From Lingula anatina (lineage: Eukaryota; Animalia; Brachiopoda), in the NCBI GenBank assembly GCA_051362555.1, contig CM120649.1, positions 17,622,567-17,686,566 on the forward strand: a DNA stretch of 64,000 bases, read 5' to 3'. Each line of letters starts with the position of its first letter. Positions within the stretch are counted from its first letter, which is position 1. Both the position numbers and the translations under genes were made by a program. Of the stretch, positions 4,780 to 57,304 are shown in pieces. The notes under the pieces are model-generated. The model was given only the letters and a program-made list of their open reading frames with translations, was not told the origin of the DNA and made no database searches.

Positions 4780-7700
4780 ATTTATTCAGCCCAAGAATAC
4801 TTCAGTTCAGAGTGGTGGATACAAGTAAGAGCTTGGAGCTAAGACAACAGACACACAGGTATCAAATTGCAGCAATGGCAAGAGCATAGAGCAAAGGAGA
4901 TTCTGGTGTGCAAGTTTCCACTCTTCTTTTCTTTTTTTGTTTTACCGAACTGAGTTCGTGAACCAAAAATTCAAGAATTTCCACAGCACATATCCCCTCT
5001 ATCCTTTATCAAATGGTTCAAATATACTTCATAGAAAACTTCCATCTCTCTGAAGGAGAAAACGCCATATCCCATTACTATTTAAAAGAGGCACTCGAAT
5101 TAGGAATTTAGAATGATTATCCACTTTTACTCCCAAAACTGGGCCATTATTCCTCTTGCACCTTGGAAAAAAAGCACATTTGGCACATTTTTTTCATCCA
5201 TGGTGAACGAAGGACTACTCATCCTCCCAACTTAGAAAAAAAAAAGGACAAGAAATTTTACGGAAATGTTTTGAATCATGGATTTCAAGAAATCCTATGG
5301 CAACTTGCTTTGTCAGTTTTGAGAATCAAATGCACCATGTCTACCACACAAAATAGCACCATCAAGGAATGGTCCAATGCCTCGTGAGAGAAAAGCGCCC
5401 AACATATCTCATGCAGCACCAAGAAGCCTCTCCACTCTATGCTCTTGCTCAATTTGTCCTATACAATCAACTTATAATGGCAAAGCACAAAGCAGTAGTC
5501 TCTACCTTGTTATTAAGGCATTGGATTTTGTGAACTTCCTGTAACCTTCAAATGCCCGACCTTGAGAGGTTATGACCTTGATTTGGCAAGGTCGTAACCT
5601 GTCTTCGGCCTACTGGATAGCATGCACACTTAAGCGGTGTTTTTGAAGTCTACCCACTGAATTTCATTGTTCTTTCAAGATATTTTACAATACAATAGCT
5701 AACAGCAGACAAGAACAGCCCACCACAGATCATGAAACCAGGTGACAGGGCTTTACAGTAGTACAGAATGTTATATCAATAGCTGCAAAAAAGCTGGAAA
5801 AAGCTAGGCAAAATAGTCCCATCCTGCATCATCATCATCTATCTTTATACAAAAACCTTGCAGTAAAATTGTCATGACAGCCTAACGGCAGGGGAGCAGA
5901 GTAAAGTGCTAGTCCTATGTGGGCGGGTACGTGAAAGCTATTACATCATGCAATTTTGTAGTGATGCAATTGACTTGAAACACAACTATACGGCAACTTT
6001 CATTTTTTTCACTTTTTTTTGAAAATATCTTGAAAGAAGACATCACATGTCTTTTTAATATCTTTCATTCGAAAATAAACAAATCCAATATCAGTAACAA
6101 TAGGATACATAACAATGATGGTGACGTCCAATGTTTGACATGTAACGTCCCCACTGCAAAATCCAATGTTTCTTAAACAACATTGTAACAAAATGAAAAA
6201 AAAAAGACGAACTACAATCTTGTTCAAGTGTGATCTTATAAAGCATGTACTACAAACAAAACAAATTAACCACCATCGCATTTTTCAATTCGCTGATGGT
6301 GGTCACATGACAATCATGTGACCACCCATGTGACTAGACTGGAAACTATATGGCGTTCAATATGTAAATAATACATTTAACGTTCAGTAACCTAGCAGCA
6401 TTCAGGCAGCTTTTTAGAGTCCCTTTTGGACATTGCATCGACAACACTTGAACAAGATTTTTCTTACGATATACATAACTACTGTAAAATTTGTACACAG
6501 CTACTTGGTATAGGTAACAGAACTGGTATTAAAATATCACAAAAATTATATAAATTTTTTACCAATGTCATTGTATCATTGTACTCCTTTTTTACAATAA
6601 TTGGTGAATTAACATTTTTTAAAATCATTGATATCCACTAGTTACTAGATTAATTAAAACACCTGATTAAATACTTTGGAAAAATATGAATCTGAAAGTT
6701 TTAAAAATCAAGACCAATGCAATGTCACTTAAAATCCAATTCAAGAATATTCCACTAAAATCATCTTGGGCTATTATTATATAAAACAGCAAACCATTAC
6801 TCAAATCTTCAAAACATCACGTTCTACTTAATCATCATTACAGTGGACTATCAACGTAATTCAACCTTGAGAACTGACACAAAGATTTATATATAATATA
6901 TATATGGAAATTAAAATGTACAAGTAATTATAAACACATTTGTTCTTAACGTTGTGTTTTTTGACACAAGCTCTTGTTCAGTTGTGGAGAAGAAATCTGA
7001 AATGCTTTCAATTTTGCATGAAAATAAGATCTTCATCCTGTAATGTGCACATTCTATGACATTTCCATTTCATTCAGCTTGCTTTGAAGATCAATCACTT
7101 AATTTATTATTCAAGATTAATTAGAAATTAAAATCATGGAATATTTCAATCAAAATGAACCCTGTCCCTCTTCTGTACTAGAAAAGCATTTTGAAAACAT
7201 TTTTATGCTTCATATCTCATATTACAAGATAACATTTTTTTAAGTTACTGGAATTATTTCCAAAATATATGAATTTCCTTTAATTTTCTATATGTTCATA
7301 GGATTTGGTGAATGGACAACAGAGATGGGGGACGGGAAGAAAGACACTGAAAATTTTTCTAAGCTTACTTACAAAGAACTGTTCATGGCAGATTGTATGT
7401 AAGTAAACAAATCTATTAAGTCACAATAACAGGATGTGTCACTTTTTCCAATTTTCAATAACTCATTTTCAAAATTTGGATAACTGCTTCATCATTCGTA
7501 CTCCAAGGACTGAACAAGAGCTGAAAATGAGCACCTCTTTTAAAAGTGGACGACCAGTGCCCACTTTGTTTAACACGAAAACAACTATACAGATCCAATA
7601 GTGCTAGTTATACTGTACCTACTCACTATGATAATGATTACAAAGTAAACAGGAAATCTTTATATCACACTTTGAGTGATTCCCTTCACATTTTACCAAT

Positions 7701-9716
7701 TAACATCAATTTTTGTTACTACCAACACACTAACGCCCCAGTTTAAAACAAAGGCAAAATTTTCTTTATTATTTTTTTATGTTAAAGTAACTTATCAATT
7801 AAGCTTGTATCAAAATAGCTTAAAACTGTATTTGGTATCATTGATTCCTTCCTTATATGGAAGTTTTTTAACTTTAAAATTCTCTGCACCATTTCAACAA
7901 TGACAAGTACATACATACAAGTACTCAAAAAATTCCCCTACGCCTTGCAACCCTATATCCCCTTACTCGACTCTGGTGTACATCTTGAATAAAGTACGCA
8001 CTACAAATAGTCACAATGTAGTAACTCATGTAAAACTTAACTAAATAAAAGAAAAAATTACTTACAAGTCAATTAAAAATGCACTATAATAATAATTAAT
8101 AATAATAATAGTTGTAATAATAGTATAAGTAATACCAATCTACAAACAATACATCAAATAAGATAAAATATATTCTAACTAGCATGGATTTTTGACCTCC
8201 ACCCCCTTAAACAGAACAAAATAAACTCATCTGGTGTAATAGCCATTCTGCCTCTGGGAGGGTCCATTCTGCCCCATAGGGATGTTACTTACAAACTTGT
8301 ATGTCCATACTTTTCTCCATCATATGGCCAGCCTGTCAGACTGTCACTATTCTTATTTATGGCACATAGAATTGTAATGGAATCAATTAAATTTGGGTTT
8401 TATATTGGACATATAAAAATTGCATTGCACTTTCGTGTTTAACTGTCAGAAAACAACCTGCGAAACACACTCTTTTTACGTCTTTTGCAGAAAATCACCT
8501 CCATGGGATATATATTTCCTTAGAAAAAAATCCCCATCACTTTTCATTAAAAAAACTCCTTGGAGCCCGCCTCCATTCTCTCCATGCTCTCTTGACAATA
8601 ACATATGTATATGTAACATACAAGTTCTATATACTGTAATATTGAGCACTCTTAATCTGTTCTGTAAGGTACACATTATAAAAGCCAGGCCAGGTCAGAT
8701 ATAAAGTTGTATGAACCACTTGCAAGTAAACTATATATAAGATATATATATACACACACTTAGAGTGCTATATTTCACTGCTAAGATTAAACCAGATGAA
8801 AAAAACTACCCAACAGTTTGATATAATACACTAATTAAGGAGATCATATATATGTACTGGTTTAATCTTTGGGGGGAAACATAGCACCGCTAAATAGTAG
8901 TCGGATCATGCGTCACTTTCATTAAAGCTTAGCAACCAAAGTAGCTTCAGCCATCTTATCTGTGTTGCCATGGATACCACAAAGCTAAGTTGTTCCTATA
9001 AATTTTGCAAGGTACTTCAACCAACAATCTAAGCAGTGTTGCTTTTTTCCTGCCCATTGGCAAAAGTGAAAACATTATTATAACAATATCAAATGCTTTA
9101 GAGTAATCAATAAACTAAAGCTAGCCCTTAAAAAAGACGGATTTTTTTTTTCAATTTGGCTTGGGAGCTGTCACAACTGCAATGTACTTCTTTGCATATA
9201 GAATGGATAACTCTCAATATTGAATGTATATAAAAAGTAACTGTAAATTTTGACAACAAGTACATAAGTAACAACTAGGGTTGCGAACAAACACCCAATA
9301 AAAGTTTTCAATGGGTGATATGAGACCACTTTTATTTTATTATTTGGCAATTTTATACTAAAGTAACTAGGACTATAACATCCCTTATACCTGCCACATT
9401 GTGTAAATCTACCTACATATCCTCCAGAACACATTATTCTTGACCTCGAAAGACCTTGACCCAATTAAAGATCTCGTTCCCTTACAAAAGAGGCCAACTG
9501 AACATCCAAGTCTTATTGCAAAATTCTGCACTCAGAGAAGACTGCAATCACTCTCATTTCTTTAGTCCTTGTTTTACAGGCACCTGTCATGGCTAAATGG
9601 ATTCTTAATCCTCATTTTATATGGCAGCTTGATTATCTCAAAGAGAAACAATTGGGCAATAGTTTCATATCTTTCATGGCTTCGGGAAAAGTCCTCACTC
9701 TCCTAATACATGGCAT
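4780..9716 (-). other. mbl: Probable long 3' UTR of mbl (distal end not determinable)
   Basis: Follows the stop at 9717; AT-rich and non-coding. Several minus-strand AATAAA hexamers (e.g. near 9333, 7764, 7103, 4781). The true poly(A) site cannot be fixed from sequence. Confidence 0.35.
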
Positions 9717-9838
9717 CTAGATCACAATTGGTTGAATCAACACCGGTATGTGGTAATACTTGCACATTGGGCGCGAGCATTTACCTTTGACAAAGTCTCG
9801 GCAGATGGTAATTTTTCCATCATTCGTTTCCACATAAT
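9717..9838 (-). CDS. mbl: Muscleblind terminal coding exon, ZnF6 (phase 1 to stop)
   Basis: Acceptor ctttctccatcttcag. Reads (D)YVETNDGKITICRDFVKGKCSRPMCKYYHIPVLIQPIVI*, a C-X7-C-X4-C-X3-H finger; phase matches the preceding exon. Confidence 0.9.
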
Positions 9839-10160: not shown

Positions 10161-10245
10161 CCTCTACTAAGTGCACATACTTGCATTGTGGTCGCTGGCA
10201 CTGACCCGACTTAAAATCTCTGCACACTGGCAGGGTGTCCAGTAA
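10161..10245 (-). CDS. mbl: Muscleblind exon, ZnF5; dual-coding (alternative frame gives FTGHPASVQRF*)
   Basis: Acceptor ttcattgtttcag, donor GTGAGT, 85 nt. Phase 0 reads LLDTLPVCRDFKSGQCQRPQCKYVHLVE. Phase 1 reads (F)TGHPASVQRF with TAA at 10211-10213. Confidence 0.9.
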
Positions 10246-12919
10246 CTGAAACAATGAACACAAACTAAGGTCACTGGGCATCCAGTTGCCTTTTAGGTGG
10301 CCACTCAGCGCAATGCTAACTTAATGGAAGTTAACAATGACAAAGCTATCTTCCATTAAGTTTACACTTGTTATTTGGACAACTGGATGTGTGTGGACAA
10401 TTGCTTATTAATTACAAATGGCCTTGTAACATTTTTCACGACTGAAAATTTTCACATTTGGAATAACTTAATAAAAGGCAATGTGCTTTGTCATTTATTA
10501 AATTTCAGTATACAAAATGACCTATCTTGACTTTCATATTAAATGTCAGCTTATGATAAAACTACATATTATGTTTTTCAAGCTTGGGGACAAACAAGCC
10601 CAGTAGAGCTCATGCTAGGTATACTAGAGTAAAAAATAGTTCGTGTACATAAACTGTCAATGCCTGAAAATTTCTGATTAAATTAATGAATAAATCATTT
10701 TGCATGGGAATTTTTATGTTTGAAAATTGAGTAGTGCTTTCGGTACTTAACTTTAGAAACATTTGTAACAGATGAAGTTACAACATTTTAAAGCTTTTAA
10801 CACAGAAAAAAAAAATCATTTAAAAGTTGGGCATGAAGACACAACATTATGTCTGAAAGTGAACTGACAATTATTTTTTCATAAGGGGAAGGGCTCATAA
10901 TGATTCAATGCAGGGCAATTTCAAGGCAGTGCAATGCAAAACTTACAAAAAAAAAAAAAAAAATAAATAAATAAATAAATAAAATAAAATAAAATAAAAA
11001 AGGAATGCCATTTGGTCACAAGAATACCACAGTGGCTTATCAATTGGTCAAAGAATTGGTTGGCATATGATAGGTGTTTCAGTTATTGTGAAGTGGTTAC
11101 TGCAAGTCTGACTTTGTAATTGTTATAGTGAGCTCACTGGGGCATGAAACTTGATGCAATAATAAAGATGTTACAAGGCCAATACGGGGCACCATTCCCT
11201 TAAATACAAGCAAAGCATAATGCACTGTGATGTTTTTAGCAAGATTTTTAGAGTTCTTTGCTGAGAGCAAAAAATGCTTCCTAAATAGAAAACAGTATCT
11301 GCTTTCATAGCAACTGTGTGTAGTAGAGACATGACATCACAAAAGACCTTTAAAAAATAAGCTAAAATCATCCAGTGTGAAGACATTTTCTTCCGTAACA
11401 ACATTCAAGTTAATATTGCCCTTTTCTCCCTTTTAAGACCATGATGCAACATTTAGAAGTAAAATAGTGCTCTTAGAATAGTAAAAATAATTAGCAGTGC
11501 TCAGAAAGTGATATCAACTAAAATATCCAAGAAGCATAGTGATCAGAAATATAACTTTGAGATGTAGCAAACCATTTACTTATAATTCTAAGCAAAATAT
11601 GATAAAGTACACAGGACAAGCTGACTTGCTGCAAAATACTGGATGGTGTAAGCTTTTTTGGGAGACAGTTATAAGCATTGATATGCAAATCCATTGGCAA
11701 AATGTGTTTTTATTACCACAAGCAAATTCAAGATCTGCTTTTTGTATCTCCACTGTTCCTTGTGAGCCACAAACTGCACTACTGATTTAACAAAATTTAC
11801 TTAGGGGTAAAAATGATGCTTCTTAATTTGGTATATGTTCTATCAACTGATCACGATAAAATCAAAATAATCAGTTGCTACTATGCCAGAAACTGACTAC
11901 TGATGCTTACCATTCAAGGTGTTTTAAAATAAACTGATGTTTTGTACCTACAGCAAACATTTTTTCTCCATCCCCCCCCCCTCTCTTGTGTCGTATATTG
12001 TATATTGAGAAAATTTCGACTAAAACATTTAACAAAAATACTTGGATAAGGTTGATAAAATTATCTGTAGAATTTTATTGCACATATAAGGGCAAAAGGC
12101 TGAATGTTAGGGCAAATGTTTGGAGCAATGGACTTTCTTCACATTATGAAGAGGAAGCTGATACCAAACATGGAAACATTCATGTGCAGTAGTTAAAAAG
12201 ACATTTTGCTAAAAAGAAATCTAGTTGAAAAGGGAGATCCAAACATTTAAACTTAAAGCTCCCCTAGCTTGTTTCATTTTAGCAAAAGATTTACTGCAAA
12301 TATTGTGCTTCTAGCCACACTCTGCAGCACTGCAGTTGCCAGGGTAGTGTTCTTAATATAAGCGGTTAAAGCTAAATATACTAGTAAAAACATGTGGTAC
12401 CGAGTTGGAATGATATGGTGGTGTAAGTAACTGTGATTAACACATGAATTCTAGTGTTTTGTGCAATTACTCACAACAAGAACCTTAACAGGCTTTCAAA
12501 GATGTATCTTTATACAGTATATCATTTGATTAGACTGCTACCTAGGACAAGTGATGGATTTCGATAATCAATGTTGTAGGTGGAGGGGGGGGGGGAGGGC
12601 TTTCGGGACTTCTATAAAATCCTGATATTTAGCAGCAAGCCTTTTCTTGTCAACATAAAATAAAGAATAAGATAGGACCTTGGCTGTGCTGAAACAAGAT
12701 TTGCTTAGAGCCACTGTACAGTAATAAAGCACATCAAATAAGGATTAATTAATACCAAAAAGGTTATATCTATGCAAGGCCAACATCATTAAACAAATGA
12801 TAAATGCCATAAAATTAGGTTGCATTAGAGGAAATTTCAAGGGTGGGTCGTAATAGAAAAACTGTCATTATAGTACTGTCTTTTCCAATTTGATGTTACC
12901 TTCTTAGGAGTCCAGAGCT

Positions 12920-13040
12920 TATTGTCTTGTAAAATAGGTCAAAGGCCATTGTCTTGTAAATTAGGTCAGAGGTCATTGTCTTGTAATGACATCAGAGGTC
13001 ACTGTCTTGAAGCGAGGTTAAAGTCACTCTTTTGTAATGA
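12920..13040. repeat. Minisatellite, about 27-bp unit, 4-5 copies
   Basis: ATTGTCTTGTAAAATAGGTCAAAGGCC-like units repeated with decay. Confidence 0.75.
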
Positions 13041-13404
13041 GACCAGAGGAAATTATTATTCAATTTTGAAGTTGTTGGTGCATCAGACACCAATTCACAG
13101 TCACCTTTACTGAATGGAGTCTTTGCTCCAACTTTGAGTCTGATGATGGAGTCAGTCATTGTGGTTACTGTTATTTATGAAAGAGGCCAACATGAATGCG
13201 ATATGAAAGTCATGTCAAGTCATTAACTTTGTTAAAAAGTCATCTTCATTTGTCTCAGGTCATACTTTACTATTAAAAGTCAAGTCAAAGAATAAACTCA
13301 TCGCATTAATGTTATATATTAACAAATTTTCAGACAATAAGTAATATTAGTTTGGTGGAAAGCTTTTTGAAAACAGGTTAGGTTAATGAAGGCTTAATCT
13401 TTTT

Positions 13405-13421
13405 TCAGCACTGCTCCCGGT
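13405..13421 (-). CDS. mbl: Candidate alternative short terminal exon, (Y)REQC*
   Basis: Good acceptor cacttctttttctag just 3' of the 86-nt exon. Splicing from the phase-1 donor at 14487 gives T|AC CGG GAG CAG TGC TGA. No independent support. Confidence 0.3.
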
Positions 13422-13443
13422 CTAGAAAAAGAAGTGTTTATAC

Positions 13444-13529
13444 CTGACCGTTGTCATCGTAATAATTTACACTATGGCTATTAGTAATGAGTGCACCTGC
13501 ACTGCCAGCAGCGGTAGGAACCAAGGACA
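13444..13529 (-). CDS. mbl: Muscleblind 86-nt frame-switching cassette exon (phase 1 to 0)
   Basis: Acceptor ctgaccaatcag, donor CAG|GTATAA. Reads (L)SLVPTAAGSAGALITNSHSVNYYDDNGQ. It is the only exon found that converts phase 1 to the phase 0 needed for ZnF5. Confidence 0.8.
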
Positions 13530-14030
13530 CTGATTGGTCAGATGGGTGGTTGGCACGGTAACACAGTGAAAATAAGGCCAGCAATTGGATGAAAGCACAA
13601 TATGGTCACAGCATGCAGAGTAGAGAGCACACACCGCAAGCAAGAGTGAAAAGTGCATGTGAAATAAAAAAAAGAAAGTGAAACATTGTTACTGAAAAAC
13701 ATGTATACCAATTTCAGTTAACGTGGCATAAACTAAACTTCCTAAAAATATTGTTAAAAAACAGTTCCCTTCACCTTTGTAATTGTTATAAAATTCAGGA
13801 AACAATGAAAAGAGGTGACTTACAACCAGAAATTTAGTACATTGTTCATGCTGACAGTAAGCAGTAGAATCCAAAATACATTAGCACAGGGATACAATTA
13901 TTGCACATCTATGTCACATTTACATTTTTGAGCTCAAAGATGTCCAAAGTACTTTGCTTCTATTAATTGAAGCAAAATCCCCAAACATTTGATTAAAAAT
14001 CTGTGCAATACTTTAGAAAGAAAAGATTGT

Positions 14031-14032
<2 letters not shown>

Positions 14033-14077
<45 letters not shown>
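14033..14077. repeat. Poly(A) tract, about 45 nt (poly-U in the mbl pre-mRNA)
   Basis: Direct observation. Confidence 0.9.
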
Positions 14078-14079
<2 letters not shown>

Positions 14080-14487
14080 GTGATAAAAAGCAAACTAAAA
14101 CTTAAAGCAAATGTGAAATTTTAAAGGTCAAAATATAGCAGGAAGCCAAGGAGAGGAATGGTATTTTTCATGATACATGGAGACATTTCAGAGTACAACT
14201 TTTGTAGCAAAGAGTCAAGGGGGTAGTCTGACAAATAATTCTGATTTTGCTAAACAAATTCTGTTCAAATGGTGCCCTGTTGTAGCATATATCACTGAAC
14301 CACGGCCAAACCAGATGCTGATATATGGTTTAAATACCAACGGGTCAACATGTAAACACATTAAAATTGATATCAAAATGAGAACAAATAAAGCCATTGT
14401 AAATAATGAAAATCATTGAAAATTGTACATAAATTTAAATATATATATATATGCACATAAATTATGTAAATTGTATGTAAATCTTAC

Positions 14488-14638
14488 ATGCTACTGGCAT
14501 ATAACCTTGCTGGTGCTGTAGCTGCATGGAGAGAGCCTGTTGGTAGGCAGTGGCGGTGGTTGGCTGGTAGACAGGAAGCCCATTCTTATCTGCTACGGCC
14601 GGACGCTTGATGTACTGCGGCATTCCTGGGACCATGCC
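14488..14638 (-). CDS. mbl: Muscleblind exon with KRPA motif (second NLS half), phase 0 to 1
   Basis: Acceptor ttttattttatccatcag, donor GTAAGA, 151 nt. Reads GMVPGMPQYIKRPAVADKNGLPVYQPTTATAYQQALSMQLQHQQGYMPVA; KRPA..DK.GLPVYQP is characteristic of invertebrate Muscleblind. Confidence 0.92.
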
Positions 14639-15594: not shown

Positions 15595-15860
15595 AGCTAA
15601 AATGTATTCAAACTGTATGTAAATATGTGCAAACAAATTGTGTCCTTCAGTCATAACTGCGGTGTGCTTGAAAGAATGTATGCAAATTGTATGTAAGTAT
15701 ATGCACATTAATTACGTCCATCAGGCATAAGCTGGTGTGACTGAAGGAATTCAAGTGTATGCAAATTGTTTGTAATACATATGCACATAAATTATGTCCA
15801 CCAAGCATAAGCTAAAATGCATGATAAAATGTACACAAATTGTTTGTAAATATGTGCCCA
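15595..15860. repeat. Degenerate tandem repeat, about 55-80-bp unit, about 4 copies
   Basis: TGTATGCAAATTGT(A/T)TGTAA.TATATGCACA recurs near 15603, 15678, 15757 and 15830. Confidence 0.7.
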
Positions 15861-18896: not shown

Positions 18897-18962
18897 CAGA
18901 ATGAGATCGTCGGAGGGCTCACGAGGTCGCTTCTTTCCTGTCAAGACCTCAACCACTTGCGG
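18897..18962 (-). CDS. mbl: Muscleblind 66-nt NLS cassette exon (likely equivalent of vertebrate MBNL1 exon 5)
   Basis: Acceptor ctgcctactactaattag, donor CTG|GTACTATG. Symmetric phase 0, reads PQVVEVLTGKKRPREPSDDLIL with a basic KKRPR cluster. Confidence 0.88.
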
Positions 18963-23352: not shown

Positions 23353-23427
23353 ATTGCTCACAGATACAGGGACAGCCGCTCCAGGCGCTTCTTGGGCGTT
23401 TAGATCCACCCAGTATGTGCCGCTGGT
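23353..23427 (-). CDS. mbl: Muscleblind 75-nt symmetric exon (probably alternative)
   Basis: Acceptor tcactaccaattcag, consensus donor GTAAGT. Phase 0 reads TSGTYWVDLNAQEAPGAAVPVSVSN; GC-rich relative to its flanks. Confidence 0.65.
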
Positions 23428-25358: not shown

Positions 25359-25613
25359 CATAGCTTGGGCTTGAGCAGTGGCAGCGGCAGCAGCAGCATT
25401 AGCTCTTTGTTGAATAGCCTTAATCTGGGCCTGAAGGTGAGGAGGAGGGTGGAAGTAACGACACGAGTCGCGCGAGCACTTCCCCTTAATGTAATCCATA
25501 CAGACAGTTACATGGTTATCGTTTGGGTCAATGTGCACGCTGTCAGGGGGGTGGGCGTATCTACACTCATCGTGCTCACGACTGCACGCTCCGCGCTGAA
25601 ACTCACGACATAC
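25359..25613 (-). CDS. mbl: Muscleblind exon, ZnF3 and ZnF4 plus alanine-rich tract
   Basis: Acceptor ctttctctcttctcttccag, donor ATG|GTAGGG, 255 nt. Reads [85 protein letters not shown], very like vertebrate MBNL ZnF3/4. Confidence 0.97.
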
Positions 25614-26981: not shown

Positions 26982-27188
26982 CTCTAGTCTATCTGCCCGC
27001 TGCAGCTTGGACTGGGCGGCGACCGTGGTGGGGACCCCTCCGGGGAGCTGAGCCGTGGAAGCCAGCGCCATGGACTGCATCATTTGGTTCCCGTCGGTGC
27101 TGCTGATCAAGCCCGCCGCGGCTGGGATTCCTGGGAGGGACGTGGCGTACTGGAATGCAGGGGGGACACCGCCAATGTACTGGGGGGC
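26982..27188 (-). CDS. mbl: Muscleblind linker exon ending in RADRLE
   Basis: Acceptor ccattattcttccag, donor GAG|GTAGTG, 207 nt. Reads APQYIGGVPPAFQY...AAQSKLQRADRLE; the KL.R.DRLE|VCRE junction is as in MBNL proteins. Confidence 0.93.
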
Positions 27189-30743: not shown

Positions 30744-33700
30744 CAAAAATTCCCATTAGTGAAGATTTTGAAGAGATTCATTTAAAATGGAGATAATGAA
30801 TTTTTGGAAAACTAGTAACTTTTTTTCTTTTTTAACCTGGTATACTGCACAGTTTGCCATGATCGGAGACAGACTGGACCCCAAATCAACTTTTTTCTGC
30901 ATCTTTTTCAATTTTGACTTTTATAACTTTCAAATATTAATATATTCCATTCAATTATGACAAATTAAGAAAGTTCCAGGACTTGATGAGGGGCTATCAC
31001 TAAAGATACTGCATCAGGGGTCCATTTTGAAATAAAAATCTTTTTACTGGTAATTTTCAAGGGTAATTTTGAAAAGGATCCATGATTTTTTTCTATGCTA
31101 AGCTGAAATATTTAGCATCTTTTGAGAATCTTTTTTAAATACCCAATACACCACTCCTTACTAGGTCCATTTTAATTTAATCATTTTGATTAAATAGTAC
31201 TTCTTGATTTTGATTGTTGTATTTGAATGATCTAAACAAATTACTGGAATTAAACTAAAAAATAAAAAACAAATAAATAAAAATCCACTAATGAATGTCT
31301 TAGTGAGGTGTGTAGCGTGAGATGATATCCACAATTTCGAAAGTAGACAATCCACAAAAATCTAGATCTAGTCATGACTTCTACAGCTCTAAACTATGAG
31401 AATAAAATCACACATGCGGGCAAGCTGATATTACTACTGATACTGAATGGGAATCGCACAGCTCTGGTATTTTCAGCCGTGCTGTTATACCATGTCCAAC
31501 CATATGAGTCTGGTCTAGTATAGGGTTCTACACTAAAACCCTGTTCGATATGACCAACCAAATGCGCACGTACCGTATAAAAGTTGGAGGCCGGGTTTTT
31601 AGATCGTAGGTACGCCTCCTCTAGTGGGGAGGTGGACTCTATGTCGCAGTAACTTGTATAGGGCCACACCCCCTCTGCTTGCGTCCTGGCTGTCATGGGG
31701 TTAACCCGCGGTGCTTGCTACGAGAGGAATAAATAATTACTGGCCACTGATTGGTCAATTTATTAGAAAAATGAGGGGCAAAATTGACATGGGCTTAATA
31801 TCTGTGATGTCATTGCTGGCCATTTTGGCTGTAACTGATGGGACCCAATATTCCTTGGTCTATAGATTTTGAATAAAGTGAGAATGAAAAATAAAAAGGT
31901 GGTCTCCTCTGGAATTTGTGAAGGATATCAAAGATGCAAATATAATAATTTCCCATTAATTGCTGGTTTGGTGACTGACTATTGTCAAAGGCCTTGTCTC
32001 CTCTCTTAAAAAGGGTTCTGCTAGATTCAAGAAAATTATATATTTTCTGCAGTTGTTTGTTTTTGTTACAGGGTACCTTTGATATGCAACTAAAACGAAG
32101 GATTGAGCCATATATATTTCAACACTCTCTTCTTTTCCCCATGTAAACTTACAGTAACATGTTTCCCTTTAATAAATTTTGATCTTTTAAGAACTGAACA
32201 GGAGGCATTACAGTTAAGGTCAGGAAAGATCATGGGAAAATATTAACTTCAATGGACTCTAAATTTCGATTCACACACTTAGCTATTAGTAATAGCCATC
32301 ATTTATATGCTGGGGGCCAAGAAAAATTATTGCTCCTTTGCAAACTTGATTAAAAAACACTCAAAAACAAGCAAGTCTTTAAGGTTTTATATTTTTTCCT
32401 TTAATTGGGTATAATTGTCCATGCGATGACAAAGTGCTTGTTATGCACATGCCATATTACATCAATACTGGCTTAAGAAATCCATTACATAACTTTTATA
32501 CAATTTAATGGATATCACAGACATATTGATTCCCTTTAAACTTTTGATAAACGGCAGGTAGTTATCATCCTATCTTAACTGAACCTAAATTAACTTGGTG
32601 GATCTCTAGCTCCTTTGTTAACTTTCCTATAAAAATTAATTTCAAGAAGCAGTTCTGATCTAAGGACTCGGATTTGTGATATCTTGAGTTTAACTTAGTG
32701 ACATGCTACCTCAGCAAATTATATGATTATGCTATGCAGGGAAAGAAATATTAATTTAAGATAATTATCTTATCAGGCAGGGGATGGAAATAACGGGGAT
32801 AAAAGTAACCACATGATCTGATGACATAGCATGTTACGACATCAGAAATGGAATGGAAATTGACCTTAACACACGGCAGGTATTTTCTTCCAACTTATCA
32901 TAAACTACTTCTCAGCTTCTTCTTCCCTCCCCCCACTCCCCACAATTTTTTTTACAAACACAGCATTAATATGAGTGCCTCTGTTTCACATGATTTAGAT
33001 TTTTTGTTTTACAGCATAACTTGCATGGCAGACATAAAGGACATAAAGGAAGCATATATAAATGTACATACAGTGTGCGTAAAAAGCACATACACAGGCC
33101 AGACAAAGCAGCATCTGCTCTAATAGCTAATAATCACATATGTTTTATGAGTAGGGATGTTTTTTAAGGTACCTCATTCATAGCTTTTTTTCTGTACACT
33201 TCATTTTTTGTTATAACTTTCACTCAGATTTATTTGAGGTGGAATAAAAATGTTTGTTATAAGAAACATTATAATATGTCCAATTTAAATTTGTTTGATT
33301 TCTAAAAATGAAAATGGTCTAATTTGCTCAAAGATTTTAATTCACTTTATATGGCAGTTGAAACTAGATAAATTTTGCAAAACCCTAACAGCTGTTGTCT
33401 TCACTGCTTTTACCATAATTGGAAAATTGCTGTGAAAAAAAAAATTAATGGGCTTCACTTTTGGAAAACTGTTAACTGTTCAAAAGCAAATGTGTGAAGT
33501 TGACTGTCAGACAGAGGAAGCCTTTTTTAAAGGCATTATATTCTGATTGTCATTTATAGCAAGTGACATGAAGAGAATTTTGGGGATTACTGATAATCTA
33601 ACAGTACCATAGGGGGCAGCACTTGTTAAGCTATCAACTTTTGGTCCAAAATTGACAACTTTCCAAATCCAAGAAACATATGGACCATTTAGTTAAAAAA

Positions 33701-33799
33701 CTAACAAAACAATGTAAGGTTTTTTTCAGATAAGAACAGCCTTTTTTTTCTGTAAGCAAATTTATTAAGTTTGGCAAGTGGAAAATTAATAAATAACAT

Positions 33800-33960
33800 A
33801 TGGCGATTCATCCGGGCTGCGACTGATGCTTAACAAGCAAAGAAGCAGAGGCAGCGTCAGCAAGAGTGGCATTGGCAATATGGAGGCAATCGACAGCGGT
33901 TACATGGACTAGACAACGAGCGGCATCAGCAGCGGCCAACGAGGAACGAGGCAATGATGT
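33800..33960 (-). promoter_or_regulatory. Intronic YGCY (MBNL-binding) cluster downstream of the 54-nt exon
   Basis: 15 minus-strand YGCY motifs counted in about 160 nt, versus about 1 on the plus strand. Confidence 0.75.
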
Positions 33961-37331: not shown

Positions 37332-37487
37332 CATGGGCATCACCTGGTAACCAGCCTGTTGTGTCAGCATCTGCATCTGTAGGTTCTTCATGATCAAGTT
37401 ATTTCGACCATTTTGTAGAAGCTGCTCTCGAAGATGTTGGGGCGGGTGAAGATATTTACATGGTGGCTCCTTCCTTTGACATTTACC
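37332..37487 (-). CDS. mbl: Muscleblind second coding exon, completes ZnF2
   Basis: Acceptor tcatttattacag, donor ATG|GTGAGT, 156 nt. Reads GKCQRKEPPCKYLHPPQHLREQLLQNGRNNLIMKNLQMQMLTQQAGYQVMPM, containing the conserved NGRNNL box. Confidence 0.97.
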
Positions 37488-49000: not shown

Positions 49001-50561
49001 AACTTTAAAATCATTTTCTGAAAATCCTCTACATTAAAAGTACACTTTCCTGGCGCTGACCCTACAAAACTAATTTTACTTTTAAACAGATTAAAACTGG
49101 TTTATACACAAAAAGTAGCAATACCATGATTAATTTCACCTGTCACTGACTGGCCATAATATAATAAAGCCCCCTCTCCCTCTCCTCTTCCATTTCCTTT
49201 AATTTAATCAGCTTTAATCCAGGTAATGTGATTAGAAAGTGGTCATCGGATGAAATAAGGGTAGGGTCAAAAATCATACCTGCATTACGAAAATCAGATG
49301 GACGTGTGCCTTTAAAGCATTCAGCAATATATCTTCTTAGCGGGCGTTATGACAGCGGCATGCAAACGCTGACACGCAGTTTGGCAATTTGAGTGATCAA
49401 AAATTCATGACAATGTATTTTTCCACTAGGTTTTGAAGCAGATGGTAGACACAGTAATGGCTGATTATGAATTTTCTGCTGTGACAAGCAATGGCAGAGG
49501 CAGGCAAGGAAGTTCTTTCCCTTTTTTCAGTTTCTTTCTTTTTTTTTTTCTTCTTTAATATCTTGAAAGATAAGTACGATCATGCCATAATCGGGGCAGT
49601 ATGGGGTGGATGGATACTTTCCTATAGCTACCAAAAAGTCTACTAGCAAACGGGTTTTATCCAAAAATCCACTTACTTTGAGTCAGGGCAAGGACTTAAA
49701 ATGAAAAGCAATGTCCTAATCCCATTTTCATTTGGATGTTCTTCCATTTTATTTAATTCACACAACTATTGGGAAGACTAAAACATTTATTTATAGAGTA
49801 ACATTTTTTTTTTTTTTTACTTTTTTGTAGAATCAAAGACCCAAGGGTCTAAAAAACAAAAGAAAACGGCACTTATTCCATCTAATTTTTCAAAACCTAA
49901 TCATTCATTTCACATCCACATCAAGGCCACCTCCATATTTGCAAATGCCAAAGCATTTGGGCACCACTGGCTGCAAAGCTCAAACTCCATGACTATAACT
50001 ATACATAGCATTCGATCAAAATGGCCGCCGGTATTCCGCTGTCCCATTTCCGTCCACCTAATGGCCATTTGATGTGAGAAGAATGTGAATTTATGGCTTT
50101 GTCTTCCGATTTATTATTAGTGGATGTTCATTTATTGGGCAGGCCAAAGGGCCATTAGTCTGCATCATTATGCCATTAAGCAAGCCAGAGAGATTATGTC
50201 CAGTCCCAATGAGAAAATAAAAATGGACAGTGGAGATATATTGGATGAAAGTCTGCTCAAAAAATAGAAAAGTGCAAAATAAATTACTTTTTTTTTTTCG
50301 TATGTTCACATTTTGCACACTGGCATAATGTAAGCAATATATATCTATTTCAGTACTGAATCAGCATTTTGAACTACAAGGAAGAGAAGTGCAATTTTCC
50401 AACTGTTTATCTTTGCAAGTTTAGTTCTTAGTTTGAAAACATAATGAAAAAATATTGTTCTGATTCATTAAACACTTTAAAAGTAAACTTGCCCTATATC
50501 TGAAGAAAAAACAAAAGAAAAATCAAAATTAAACAACAGGTTTATGAATAATAAACACATA

Positions 50562-57064: not shown

Positions 57065-57304
57065 CTTTATAGAATCAAAACAACATGTGACTCTTCCATT
57101 CTGAACTTCCACATGCGGAGGAGGGTGTGCGAATTTACACTCCAGCTCTGTACGTGTGCACTTGTTCCTTTGGTATTCTCGACACACTTCCAGCGTTAGC
57201 CAACGAGAATCCTTTTGATTGGCCAAAGTAGCCAGTTGAGCAGCCGCCATTGGGTTCATTACTGCCGAATTAGGTATCCCTGCTGCCGGATTTACCATAG
57301 CCAT
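57065..57304 (-). CDS. mbl: Muscleblind first coding segment, ZnF1 and start of ZnF2
   Basis: Start context GCAAACATGG. Reads MAMVNP...[50 protein letters not shown], then donor AAG|[15 protein letters not shown] and NGRV..CFDS are diagnostic of muscleblind. Confidence 0.98.

What the first reader, a model, noticed from the sequence alone, without database searches (positions are those of the whole stretch)
10161..14638. Dual-coding exon: an 86-nt cassette toggles between 4-finger and 6-finger Muscleblind
Seen: exon 14488-14638 ends in phase 1. Direct splicing to exon 10161-10245 gives ...GYMPVA-FTGHPASVQRF*. Including exon 13444-13529 shifts the same nucleotides into LLDTLPVCRDFKSGQC..., opening ZnF5 and ZnF6. 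The predicted core isoforms are 369 aa and 455 aa. The short tail resembles the TGHPP.VPRF-type C-terminus I recall from invertebrate Muscleblind, so both frames may be under selection (inference). The short-frame stop lies exactly 50 nt upstream of the last exon junction, at the edge of the NMD rule.
Basis: partly seen in the sequence, partly recalled or inferred. Interest (0 to 1): 0.88.

Follow-up and report, generated by a model that had tools for sequence, protein, structure and literature searches.

The report
Muscleblind two-frame exon in a brachiopod
In the muscleblind splicing-factor gene of the lamp shell Lingula, one exon encodes a short tail in one frame and a third zinc-finger pair in another; only the short-tail RNA was seen here, the optional exon that would switch frames is intact and likely used in rare cells, and what is likely the same switch is already described in fruit flies.

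Summary
The sequence observation is exact: phases, both translations, 369/455 aa, stop 50 nt before the last junction seen. The gene is Lingula anatina muscleblind. Both frames are conserved: in 37 of 37 distinct orthologous exons (36 found without fixing wobble bases, plus Lingula's) the short-frame stop sits at the same place, and six-finger proteins with the homologous cassette occur across protostomes. But the toggle was not seen in Lingula: 771 skip-junction reads and no listed inclusion junction in six informative RNA runs; all 8 RefSeq isoforms retrieved skip. The ZnF3/4 exon is also often skipped, so '4 versus 6' is too simple. The skip RNA is abundant; an NMD role is unsupported. The switch is published in Drosophila (AE3; mbl-C versus photoreceptor mbl-O/P; PMC9352392), and this scan found it before in octopus and an arthropod. 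Added here: a third finger pair reaching coral and lamprey, a 160-nt AG-free, YGCY-rich intron end suggesting self-repression, and a lamprey cassette of inferred 95 nt that probably equals the human 95-nt exon. New member of a known kind.

The parts
57065..57304 (-). First coding exon (ZnF1 and start of ZnF2)
   Evidence: matches RefSeq Lingula proteins
37332..37487 (-). Exon completing ZnF2
26982..27188 (-). Linker exon ending RADRLE; often spliced straight to the KRP exon
   Evidence: loose ends 48, 41, 44, 76, 10, 45 reads
25359..25613 (-). ZnF3/4 exon, 255 nt, in-frame cassette, often skipped
   Evidence: RefSeq X1, X2, X4, X7 include it, X3, X5, X6, X8 lack it
23353..23427 (-). 75-nt in-frame cassette exon
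   Evidence: junctions 12/23/30 reads; RefSeq X3, X5
18897..18962 (-). 66-nt KR (NLS) cassette exon; 122-nt AG-free zone with 12 YGCY upstream
   Evidence: RefSeq X3, X6
14488..14638 (-). KRP exon, 151 nt, ends in phase 1
13530..13692 (-). 160-nt AG-free zone before the cassette: TAAC at -162, pyrimidine tract at -156, six YGCY inside (predicted distant branch point and MBL silencer)
   Evidence: 2 of 2563 AG-to-AG gaps in the gene are this long
13444..13529 (-). 86-nt frame-shifting cassette; its last ~11 codons are predicted to fold with the third finger pair; inclusion not observed
   Evidence: absent
10161..10245 (-). Dual-coding exon, 85 nt: short tail plus stop (skip) or ZnF5 (include)
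10211..10213 (-). Short-frame stop TAA (third base of Phe codon TTT plus AA of Lys)
   Evidence: same place in 37 of 37 distinct exons
9717..9838 (-). ZnF6 coding part of the last exon, stop 9719-9717; 3' UTR in skip transcripts
   Evidence: junction 10161>9838 in 607 reads
6000..9716 (-). Long 3' UTR, covered by reads down to at least 6000

Best explanation
Exon 10245-10161 of Lingula muscleblind encodes two conserved products in two frames, and the 86-nt cassette likely works as a cell-type-restricted switch between them: skipped in all RNA sampled here, giving an 11-residue tail and stop, and likely included in rare cells, where it would add a third RNA-binding zinc-finger pair. Shown: exon structure, dominant skipping, conservation of both frames, intact cassette and ZnF5/6. 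Inferred: inclusion in some Lingula cell type or stage (by orthology with fly AE3, whose inclusion form is mainly in photoreceptors); repression of the cassette by MBL itself through YGCY sites between a distant branch point and the acceptor (about 0.55 on its own); and a function of the tail peptide. Together with the ZnF3/4 and NLS cassettes, the gene would build proteins with one, two or three finger pairs.
For: Skip junction 771 reads in 6 runs. Cassette is the best of 1475 candidates against a profile of 21 other protostome cassettes. Six-finger proteins with cassette + ZnF5/6 are annotated in molluscs, a bryozoan, chelicerates, crustaceans and insects. Of 120 listed hits found by the KRP exon alone, 75 end in the short tail, 8 have the ZnF5/6 tail, 37 other ends. 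Short and long tails are codon-compatible in 7 of 7 same-clade pairs, including lineage-specific double changes in mussel and spider; chance of the short motif from free synonymous codons is 6e-5 to 3e-4 per lineage. DNA: 56 of 67 pattern hits are mbl-type, 36 distinct; with Lingula, 37 of 37 keep the stop, Phe11 is TTT 37/37, Cys8 TGC 37/37, Leu2 CTG 36/37, whereas Cys16 is 27/10 and His25 27/10. Lingula's third pair sits in a TZF3 clade (100/99) on a short branch, 0.084, 59-79% identical to 16 others, though ZnF6 is UTR in every observed transcript. AlphaFold2 of a scorpion six-finger protein: pLDDT about 90-96 over residues 351-420, which includes the end of the cassette. 160-nt AG-free zone with 6 YGCY; the known autoregulated NLS exon has 122 nt and 12. 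Fly: AE3 inclusion shifts frame and adds two fingers; both proteins on westerns; mbl-O/P mainly photoreceptors (PMC9352392). MBNL1 binds upstream of and represses the 95-nt Mbnl2 exon (PMC9943662).
Against: No inclusion junction listed in any of 6 informative runs; depth over the cassette is at intron level (0.2-1.6 versus 80-220 on the KRP exon); 0 of 8 RefSeq Lingula isoforms include it; none of 19 spliced metagenome contigs from other animals shows the cassette. Cassette splice signals are weak (12 of 20 pyrimidines, donor CAG/gtataa). Lower synonymous divergence in codons 1-11 than 13-28 is significant only after thinning (0.33 vs 0.57, p=0.011, n=27; unthinned 0.36 vs 0.52, p=0.095, n=37), and sequences are not independent. 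One group changes the tail letters (TGYTSHLPRL type, 11 of 37) while keeping the stop. YGCY count of 7 in 200 nt is only the top 3% of windows in this gene. In fly, knockdown and overexpression showed no crosstalk between mbl-C and mbl-O/P, which does not favour self-repression of this exon.
Confidence: 0.8

Rival explanations
1. What is selected in the short frame is the stop and an RNA-level signal (splicing enhancer, structure or binding site), not the tail peptide; the exon is then a regulated truncation rather than two functional peptides. Compatible with the switch being real.
For: Stop is held in 37 of 37 while the tail varies in one group (11 of 37 read TGY...L). The constrained bases lie within 35 nt of a 3' splice site. 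No function for the tail was found in the papers read.
Against: Free positions change among like residues (T/A, V/M/L, P/Q), while Cys8 TGC is kept even where TGT would not make a stop, and Arg9 third base is only A or C, both giving Arg in the short frame. G, H, P columns, not used to select tails, are kept in 32, 31 and 31 of 33 distinct tails.
Confidence: 0.3
2. In Lingula the cassette is a silent relic: ZnF5/6 are never made and only the short tail matters.
For: 0 inclusion versus 771 skip reads; 0 of 8 RefSeq isoforms; weak splice signals.
Against: Cassette motif, GT/AG ends, frame and all eight zinc ligands are intact; third-pair branch is among the shortest; both fingers pass Pfam cut-offs; skipping also dominates spliced contigs of other animals, whose relatives have annotated six-finger forms.
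Confidence: 0.1
3. The skip form is tuned to the NMD threshold and the cassette controls transcript level.
For: Stop lies 50 nt before the last junction seen; a rare alternative donor at 10181 shortens this to 30 nt (5 reads).
Against: Skip RNA spliced at the last intron is the dominant steady-state form (607 last-junction reads for 771 skip reads); the donor lies at +85 in the 37 genomic loci classed as such, as the finger spacing of the long frame requires; fly MBL-C is an abundant protein.
Confidence: 0.07

Closest known systems
Drosophila muscleblind exon AE3: mbl-C versus mbl-O/P (Pamudurti 2022, PMC9352392); earlier MblF (cited in Irion 2012, PMC3315501)
   Same: A cassette near the 3' end whose inclusion shifts the frame and adds a finger pair; skipping gives the short protein. 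Dipteran RefSeq proteins show the same cassette end and LLDTLPVC start as Lingula. Identity with AE3 is inferred; no D. melanogaster sequence was retrieved.
   Different: About 45% of fly-head transcripts include it; none seen in Lingula samples. The paper counts two pairs for MBL-O/P and does not treat the pair as a third, ancient one or test both frames for selection (passages and sections 7, 9 seen).
Vertebrate MBNL1/2/3 95-nt exon (MBNL2 exon 8/9; PMC6530876, PMC9943662); MBNL1/2 dual-coding regions (bioRxiv 10.64898/2026.05.28.727796)
   Same: 3n+2 cassette after the KR exon, shifting the frame of the next exon; repressed by MBNL1. Lamprey and scorpion cassettes are 32 residues with a split first codon, i.e. 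95 nt by inference.
   Different: In jawed vertebrates inclusion gives the shorter end and no third pair is described. In lamprey and Ciona the short end comes from skipping the ZnF5 exon and reading the ZnF6 exon out of frame, a different dual-coding exon.
Autoregulated KR/NLS cassette of MBNL genes (MBNL1 exon 5, worm exon 7; PMC10773944)
   Same: Same gene; same intron anatomy of a long AG-free zone with YGCY cluster.
   Different: In-frame and controls localisation; it is exon 18962-18897 here, not this cassette.

Membership tests
Muscleblind/MBNL | Tandem CCCH finger pairs homologous to MBNL1/2 | tested here: met
   100% identity to RefSeq Lingula muscleblind-like; Pfam PF22628 x4, and x1 in each of the ZnF5 and ZnF6 exons; scorpion orthologue matches solved MBNL1/2 chains
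Muscleblind/MBNL | KR motifs on adjacent exons, the first alternative | tested here: met
   Exons 18962-18897 and 14638-14488; junctions with and without
Muscleblind/MBNL | YGCY binding and splicing activity | not testable with these tools
   needs assay
Fly AE3-type frame switch | 3n+2 cassette between KRP exon and LLDTLPVC exon | tested here: met
   86 nt; best of 1475 candidates
Fly AE3-type frame switch | Skip RNA giving the short tail | tested here: met
   771 reads
Fly AE3-type frame switch | Inclusion RNA giving the extra finger pair in this species | tested here: inconclusive
   No listed junction in 6 informative runs of unknown tissue, 6-30% of each read; listing needs 3 reads at 2 starts and 1-2% share
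Fly AE3-type frame switch | Cell-type-specific use; both proteins made | not testable with these tools
   needs tissue-resolved RNA and proteomics
Dual-coding exon under selection in both frames | Second frame and stop kept beyond what the first frame forces | tested here: met
   Stop 37 of 37; fixed wobble bases at codons 2, 8, 11; P about 3e-4 per lineage
Dual-coding exon under selection in both frames | Peptide evidence for both frames | not testable with these tools
   no proteomics tool
Vertebrate 95-nt exon orthologue | Position, phase and length class | tested here: met
   Lamprey cassette lies between the KR-region exons and ZnF5, 32 residues, split first codon; 95 nt in PMC6530876, PMC9943662
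Vertebrate 95-nt exon orthologue | Sequence homology to jawed-vertebrate exon | not tested
   No jawed-vertebrate full-length protein was retrieved; protostome profile ranks the amphioxus and hemichordate cassette 1st in its protein, lamprey only 6th of about 550
NMD poison-exon switch | Stop more than 50-55 nt upstream of last junction and depleted RNA | tested here: not met
   50 nt exactly, and that RNA is the dominant form

The most novel reading that the evidence does not exclude
Ancestral animal muscleblind had three finger pairs, and this cassette is the same exon as the human 95-nt MBNL exon mis-spliced in myotonic dystrophy. Protostomes overprinted a stop-bearing tail on the ZnF5 exon to switch the third pair off; chordates instead overprinted the ZnF6 exon; jawed vertebrates then lost the ZnF5 exon, so the destabilising C-terminus of MBNL2 made without the 95-nt exon would be the relic of finger 6. 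Basis: TZF3 clade with coral and lamprey; lamprey isoforms with six fingers, with cassette then a 4-residue end, and with both exons skipped reading ZnF6 in frame; residues 1-7 of the ZnF5 exon 88% identical among 22 protostomes but 43% among 10 deuterostomes and coral, while residues 13-27 are 43% versus 55%. A 2026 review still says one pair in invertebrates, two in vertebrates (PMC13044900). The jawed-vertebrate step is untested here.
Probability: 0.6. Interest if true: 0.62.

Novelty: new member of a known kind. Interest (0 to 1): 0.42.

Why it matters
It shows that the fly mbl-C / mbl-O/P frame switch is an ancient protostome device, kept in both frames, for changing how many RNA-binding modules a master splicing regulator carries: a rare, very old dual-coding exon. 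Reviews read here describe MBNL as having one or two finger pairs, yet a third pair is annotated from coral to lamprey. If the cassette equals the human 95-nt exon, the DM1-relevant MBNL2 stability switch has an origin that can be tested. For Lingula itself the result is modest: the long form remains unobserved.

Tried and rejected
No whole genome is held for this window. The representative-protein search never ran, so no jawed-vertebrate MBNL C-terminus was obtained. The search for related loci did not run with either query. Supplement of PMC9943662 was too large to read; Oddo 2016 supplementary alignment gave labels only and its Figure 1A, which likely shows the six-finger Ciona protein, could not be seen; bioRxiv supplements are closed. 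These may already show a third pair. Paper searches did not list a paper on a third ancestral pair or on both-frame selection in invertebrate mbl; one search was swamped by unrelated hits, and the key fly paper was missed by them and came from an earlier finding, so absence from print is not established. First exon coordinates were off by one or two and corrected. Tail list was selected on a terminal RF, so its last two columns carry no weight; and one search are the unbiased counts. 11 of 67 pattern hits were dropped as non-mbl-type on protein grounds (two of them look like tunicate-type ZnF5 exons without the stop). NMD tuning and a relic cassette were considered and given low odds.
Full report
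What is there. The window holds the muscleblind gene of the brachiopod Lingula anatina on the minus strand; the KRP exon is 100% identical to RefSeq proteins. Coding exons: 57304-57065, 37487-37332, 27188-26982, ZnF3/4 25613-25359, a 75-nt cassette 23427-23353, the NLS cassette 18962-18897, KRP 14638-14488, the 86-nt cassette 13529-13444, the dual-coding exon 10245-10161 and the last exon from 9838. RefSeq isoforms hold further linker exons that I did not map.

RNA. Nine raw-read runs under the same species label were listed; eight were laid, six were informative, 6-30% of each was read, tissues unknown. The skip junction 14488>10245 has 95, 126, 119 and 243, 94, 94 reads, 771 in all. No junction to 13529 or from 13444 is listed, and depth over the cassette is at intron level. 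Rows need 3 reads at 2 starts and a 1-2% share, and one joint row at repeats was dropped, so inclusion is below roughly 1-2% in these samples. All 8 RefSeq isoforms retrieved (X1-X8) end in the short tail. Reads entering the KRP exon come most often straight from the linker exon in five of six runs (48, 41, 44, 76, 45; 10 in X6), and less often from the ZnF3/4 exon (8, 1, 7; a 47-read loose-end row in X5). The commonest product is thus probably a one-pair protein with the short tail. Runs X7-X9 differ from the window at many fixed sites and may be another population.

The cassette is real as an exon homologue. A search with four long tails and the three Lingula exon peptides listed 120 of 444 hits; among 51 representatives inspected, a third finger pair preceded by a matching cassette end occurs in bivalves, gastropods, a bryozoan, chelicerates, crustaceans and insects, and a third pair also in hemichordates, echinoderms, amphioxus, Ciona, lampreys and the coral Porites. 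Against a profile from 21 protostomes, the Lingula cassette scores 41.1, best of 1475 candidate GT-ending 16-mers in the window, next 12.6. The third pairs form one clade, 100/99, on 64 columns, with an unsettled bootstrap; Lingula's branch is 0.084. An AlphaFold2 model of the scorpion six-finger protein gives pLDDT of about 90 or more from residue 351 to 420, so the end of the cassette is predicted to be part of the third pair's fold.

Both frames are constrained. Of 120 listed relatives found by the KRP exon alone (457 passed), 75 end in the short tail, 8 carry ZnF5/6 and 37 have other ends, mostly read-through or other terminal exons. Seven of seven short/long pairs from the same clade fit one DNA string read in two frames, with mussel and spider pairs fitting only their own partner; the chance of the motif from free synonymous codons is 6e-5 to 3e-4 per lineage. 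For a test on DNA I scanned metagenome contigs with a pattern that fixes only long-frame residues and leaves wobble bases free: 67 loci, 56 mbl-type, 36 distinct exons. With Lingula, 37 of 37 have the stop at the same place and none an earlier one; Phe11 is always TTT (TTC would remove the stop), Cys8 always TGC, Leu2 CTG in 36, while Cys16 and His25 after the stop split 27/10; Cys21 is 34/3, so some bias exists there too. Mean synonymous difference is 0.33 before and 0.57 after the stop in 27 thinned sequences (p=0.011), 0.36 and 0.52 unthinned (p=0.095). Sequences are related, so these are not independent draws. Eleven of 37 have an altered tail with the stop kept, which leaves open whether the peptide or only the stop and an RNA signal is selected. 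None of 19 spliced contigs shows the cassette, so skipping dominates bulk RNA in other animals too. Residues 1-7 of the exon are 88% identical among 22 protostomes and 43% among 10 deuterostomes plus coral, against 43% and 55% for residues 13-27; no short tail of this type was among the amphioxus, hemichordate, starfish, Ciona, lamprey or coral isoforms listed (90%-identity clusters seeded from long forms, so biased). The overprinting therefore looks protostome-specific (inference).

How it likely works. By default the KRP exon joins the dual-coding exon in phase 1 and translation stops after 11 residues; ZnF5/6 become 3' UTR. Inclusion of 86 nt restores phase 0 and supplies the N-terminal strand of the third pair. 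The intron before the cassette has a 160-nt AG-free zone (2 of 2563 gaps in the gene are as long), TAAC at -162, a pyrimidine tract at -156 and six YGCY motifs; the NLS exon, known to be autoregulated, has 122 nt and 12. This suggests repression by MBL itself (inferred, about 0.55). For it: MBNL1 binds upstream of and represses the 95-nt Mbnl2 exon (PMC9943662, passages). Against it: no crosstalk between fly mbl-C and mbl-O/P (PMC9352392). NMD is unlikely to be the point: the last intron is spliced in 607 reads alongside 771 skip reads, and the exon length is fixed by finger spacing.

What is known. Pamudurti 2022 (PMC9352392; passages covering section 7, section 9, outline) report that excluding AE3 gives mbl-C and including it shifts the frame and adds two fingers (mbl-O/P, about 45% of head transcripts, mainly photoreceptors; both proteins detected). 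I reached this paper through earlier finding e1-8662598 and checked it. That AE3 is this cassette is inferred from dipteran proteins. Irion 2012 (PMC3315501; parts 2-3 of 7 and passages) mentions MblF with a divergent second pair. Vicente-Crespo 2008 (PMC2238819; passages) shows the MblC-type end is conserved in invertebrates. Verbeeren 2023 (PMC10773944; section 6, passages) and a 2026 review (PMC13044900; passages) describe one or two pairs. Oddo 2016 (PMC5041496; section 14, passages) used Ciona isoform X1, six-fingered, and notes that finger number varies. PMC6530876 (passages) gives the 95-nt frame-shifting exon 8. Two 2026 preprints (passages) list vertebrate MBNL1/2 among conserved dual-coding regions. 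PMC11837677 (passages) added nothing.

The vertebrate link. Lamprey isoforms include six-finger forms, forms with the cassette followed by a 4-residue end, and forms skipping both exons and reading ZnF6 in frame. The 4-residue end is codon-compatible with the ZnF6 exon read out of frame in lamprey and Ciona. The lamprey cassette is 32 residues with a split first codon, hence 95 nt by inference, after a 12-residue piece, matching the 95-nt and 36-nt exons of MBNL1. Sequence similarity to protostome cassettes is clear for amphioxus and three hemichordates (rank 1 in each protein), weak for lamprey (rank 6), absent for echinoderms, Ciona and coral. No jawed-vertebrate C-terminus was retrieved, so the last step is untested.

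Verdict. Real, ancient and neat, but the mechanism is published in fly, the scan has noted it in octopus and an arthropod, and the six-finger form is unobserved in Lingula. New member of a known kind; interest 0.42.

Noticed in passing
window 25613-25359 and 23427-23353 (-): The ZnF3/4 exon is often skipped; it is not found together with the 75-nt or the NLS cassette in any of the 8 RefSeq isoforms or listed junctions, hinting at mutually exclusive use.
   Followed up: partly
window 18962-18897 and 19085-18963 (-): KR/NLS cassette with a 122-nt AG-free zone holding 12 YGCY motifs, the known autoregulated exon; spliced both in and out.
   Followed up: partly
window 10001-9915 (-): Rare cryptic 87-nt exon in the last intron (junction 10161>10001 in 4 and 2 reads); it would stop the long frame after ZnF5.
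   Followed up: partly
window 10181 (-): Alternative donor 20 nt inside the dual-coding exon (5 reads in X5); harmless to the short frame, breaks the long one.
   Followed up: partly
window about 33700-33900 and 49300-49500 (-): 200-nt windows with 12 and 10 YGCY motifs; may be unmapped linker exons or further MBL sites.
   Followed up: no
window 9716-6000 (-): 3' UTR of at least 3.7 kb with continuous read cover; runs X7-X9 show many fixed differences and indels from the window, suggesting a different population or sibling species under the same label.
   Followed up: no
P0140, P0165, P0185, P0300 (hemichordates, starfish): Two alternative ZnF6 exons, apparently a duplicated, mutually exclusive last finger.
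   Followed up: no
P0251, P0257 (lamprey); P0247, P0254, P0303, P0306: Five-exon-skip forms with a lone ZnF6, and an identical 4-residue end in lamprey and Ciona from the ZnF6 exon read out of frame: a second dual-coding exon in chordates.
   Followed up: partly
P0058, P0065 (horseshoe crab); L035: Short tails or exons implying a changed long-frame residue at codon 3, possibly paralogues relaxing the third pair while keeping the stop.
   Followed up: no
window 15601-15813: 74-bp tandem repeat, 2.8 copies, in the intron upstream of the KRP exon.
   Followed up: no
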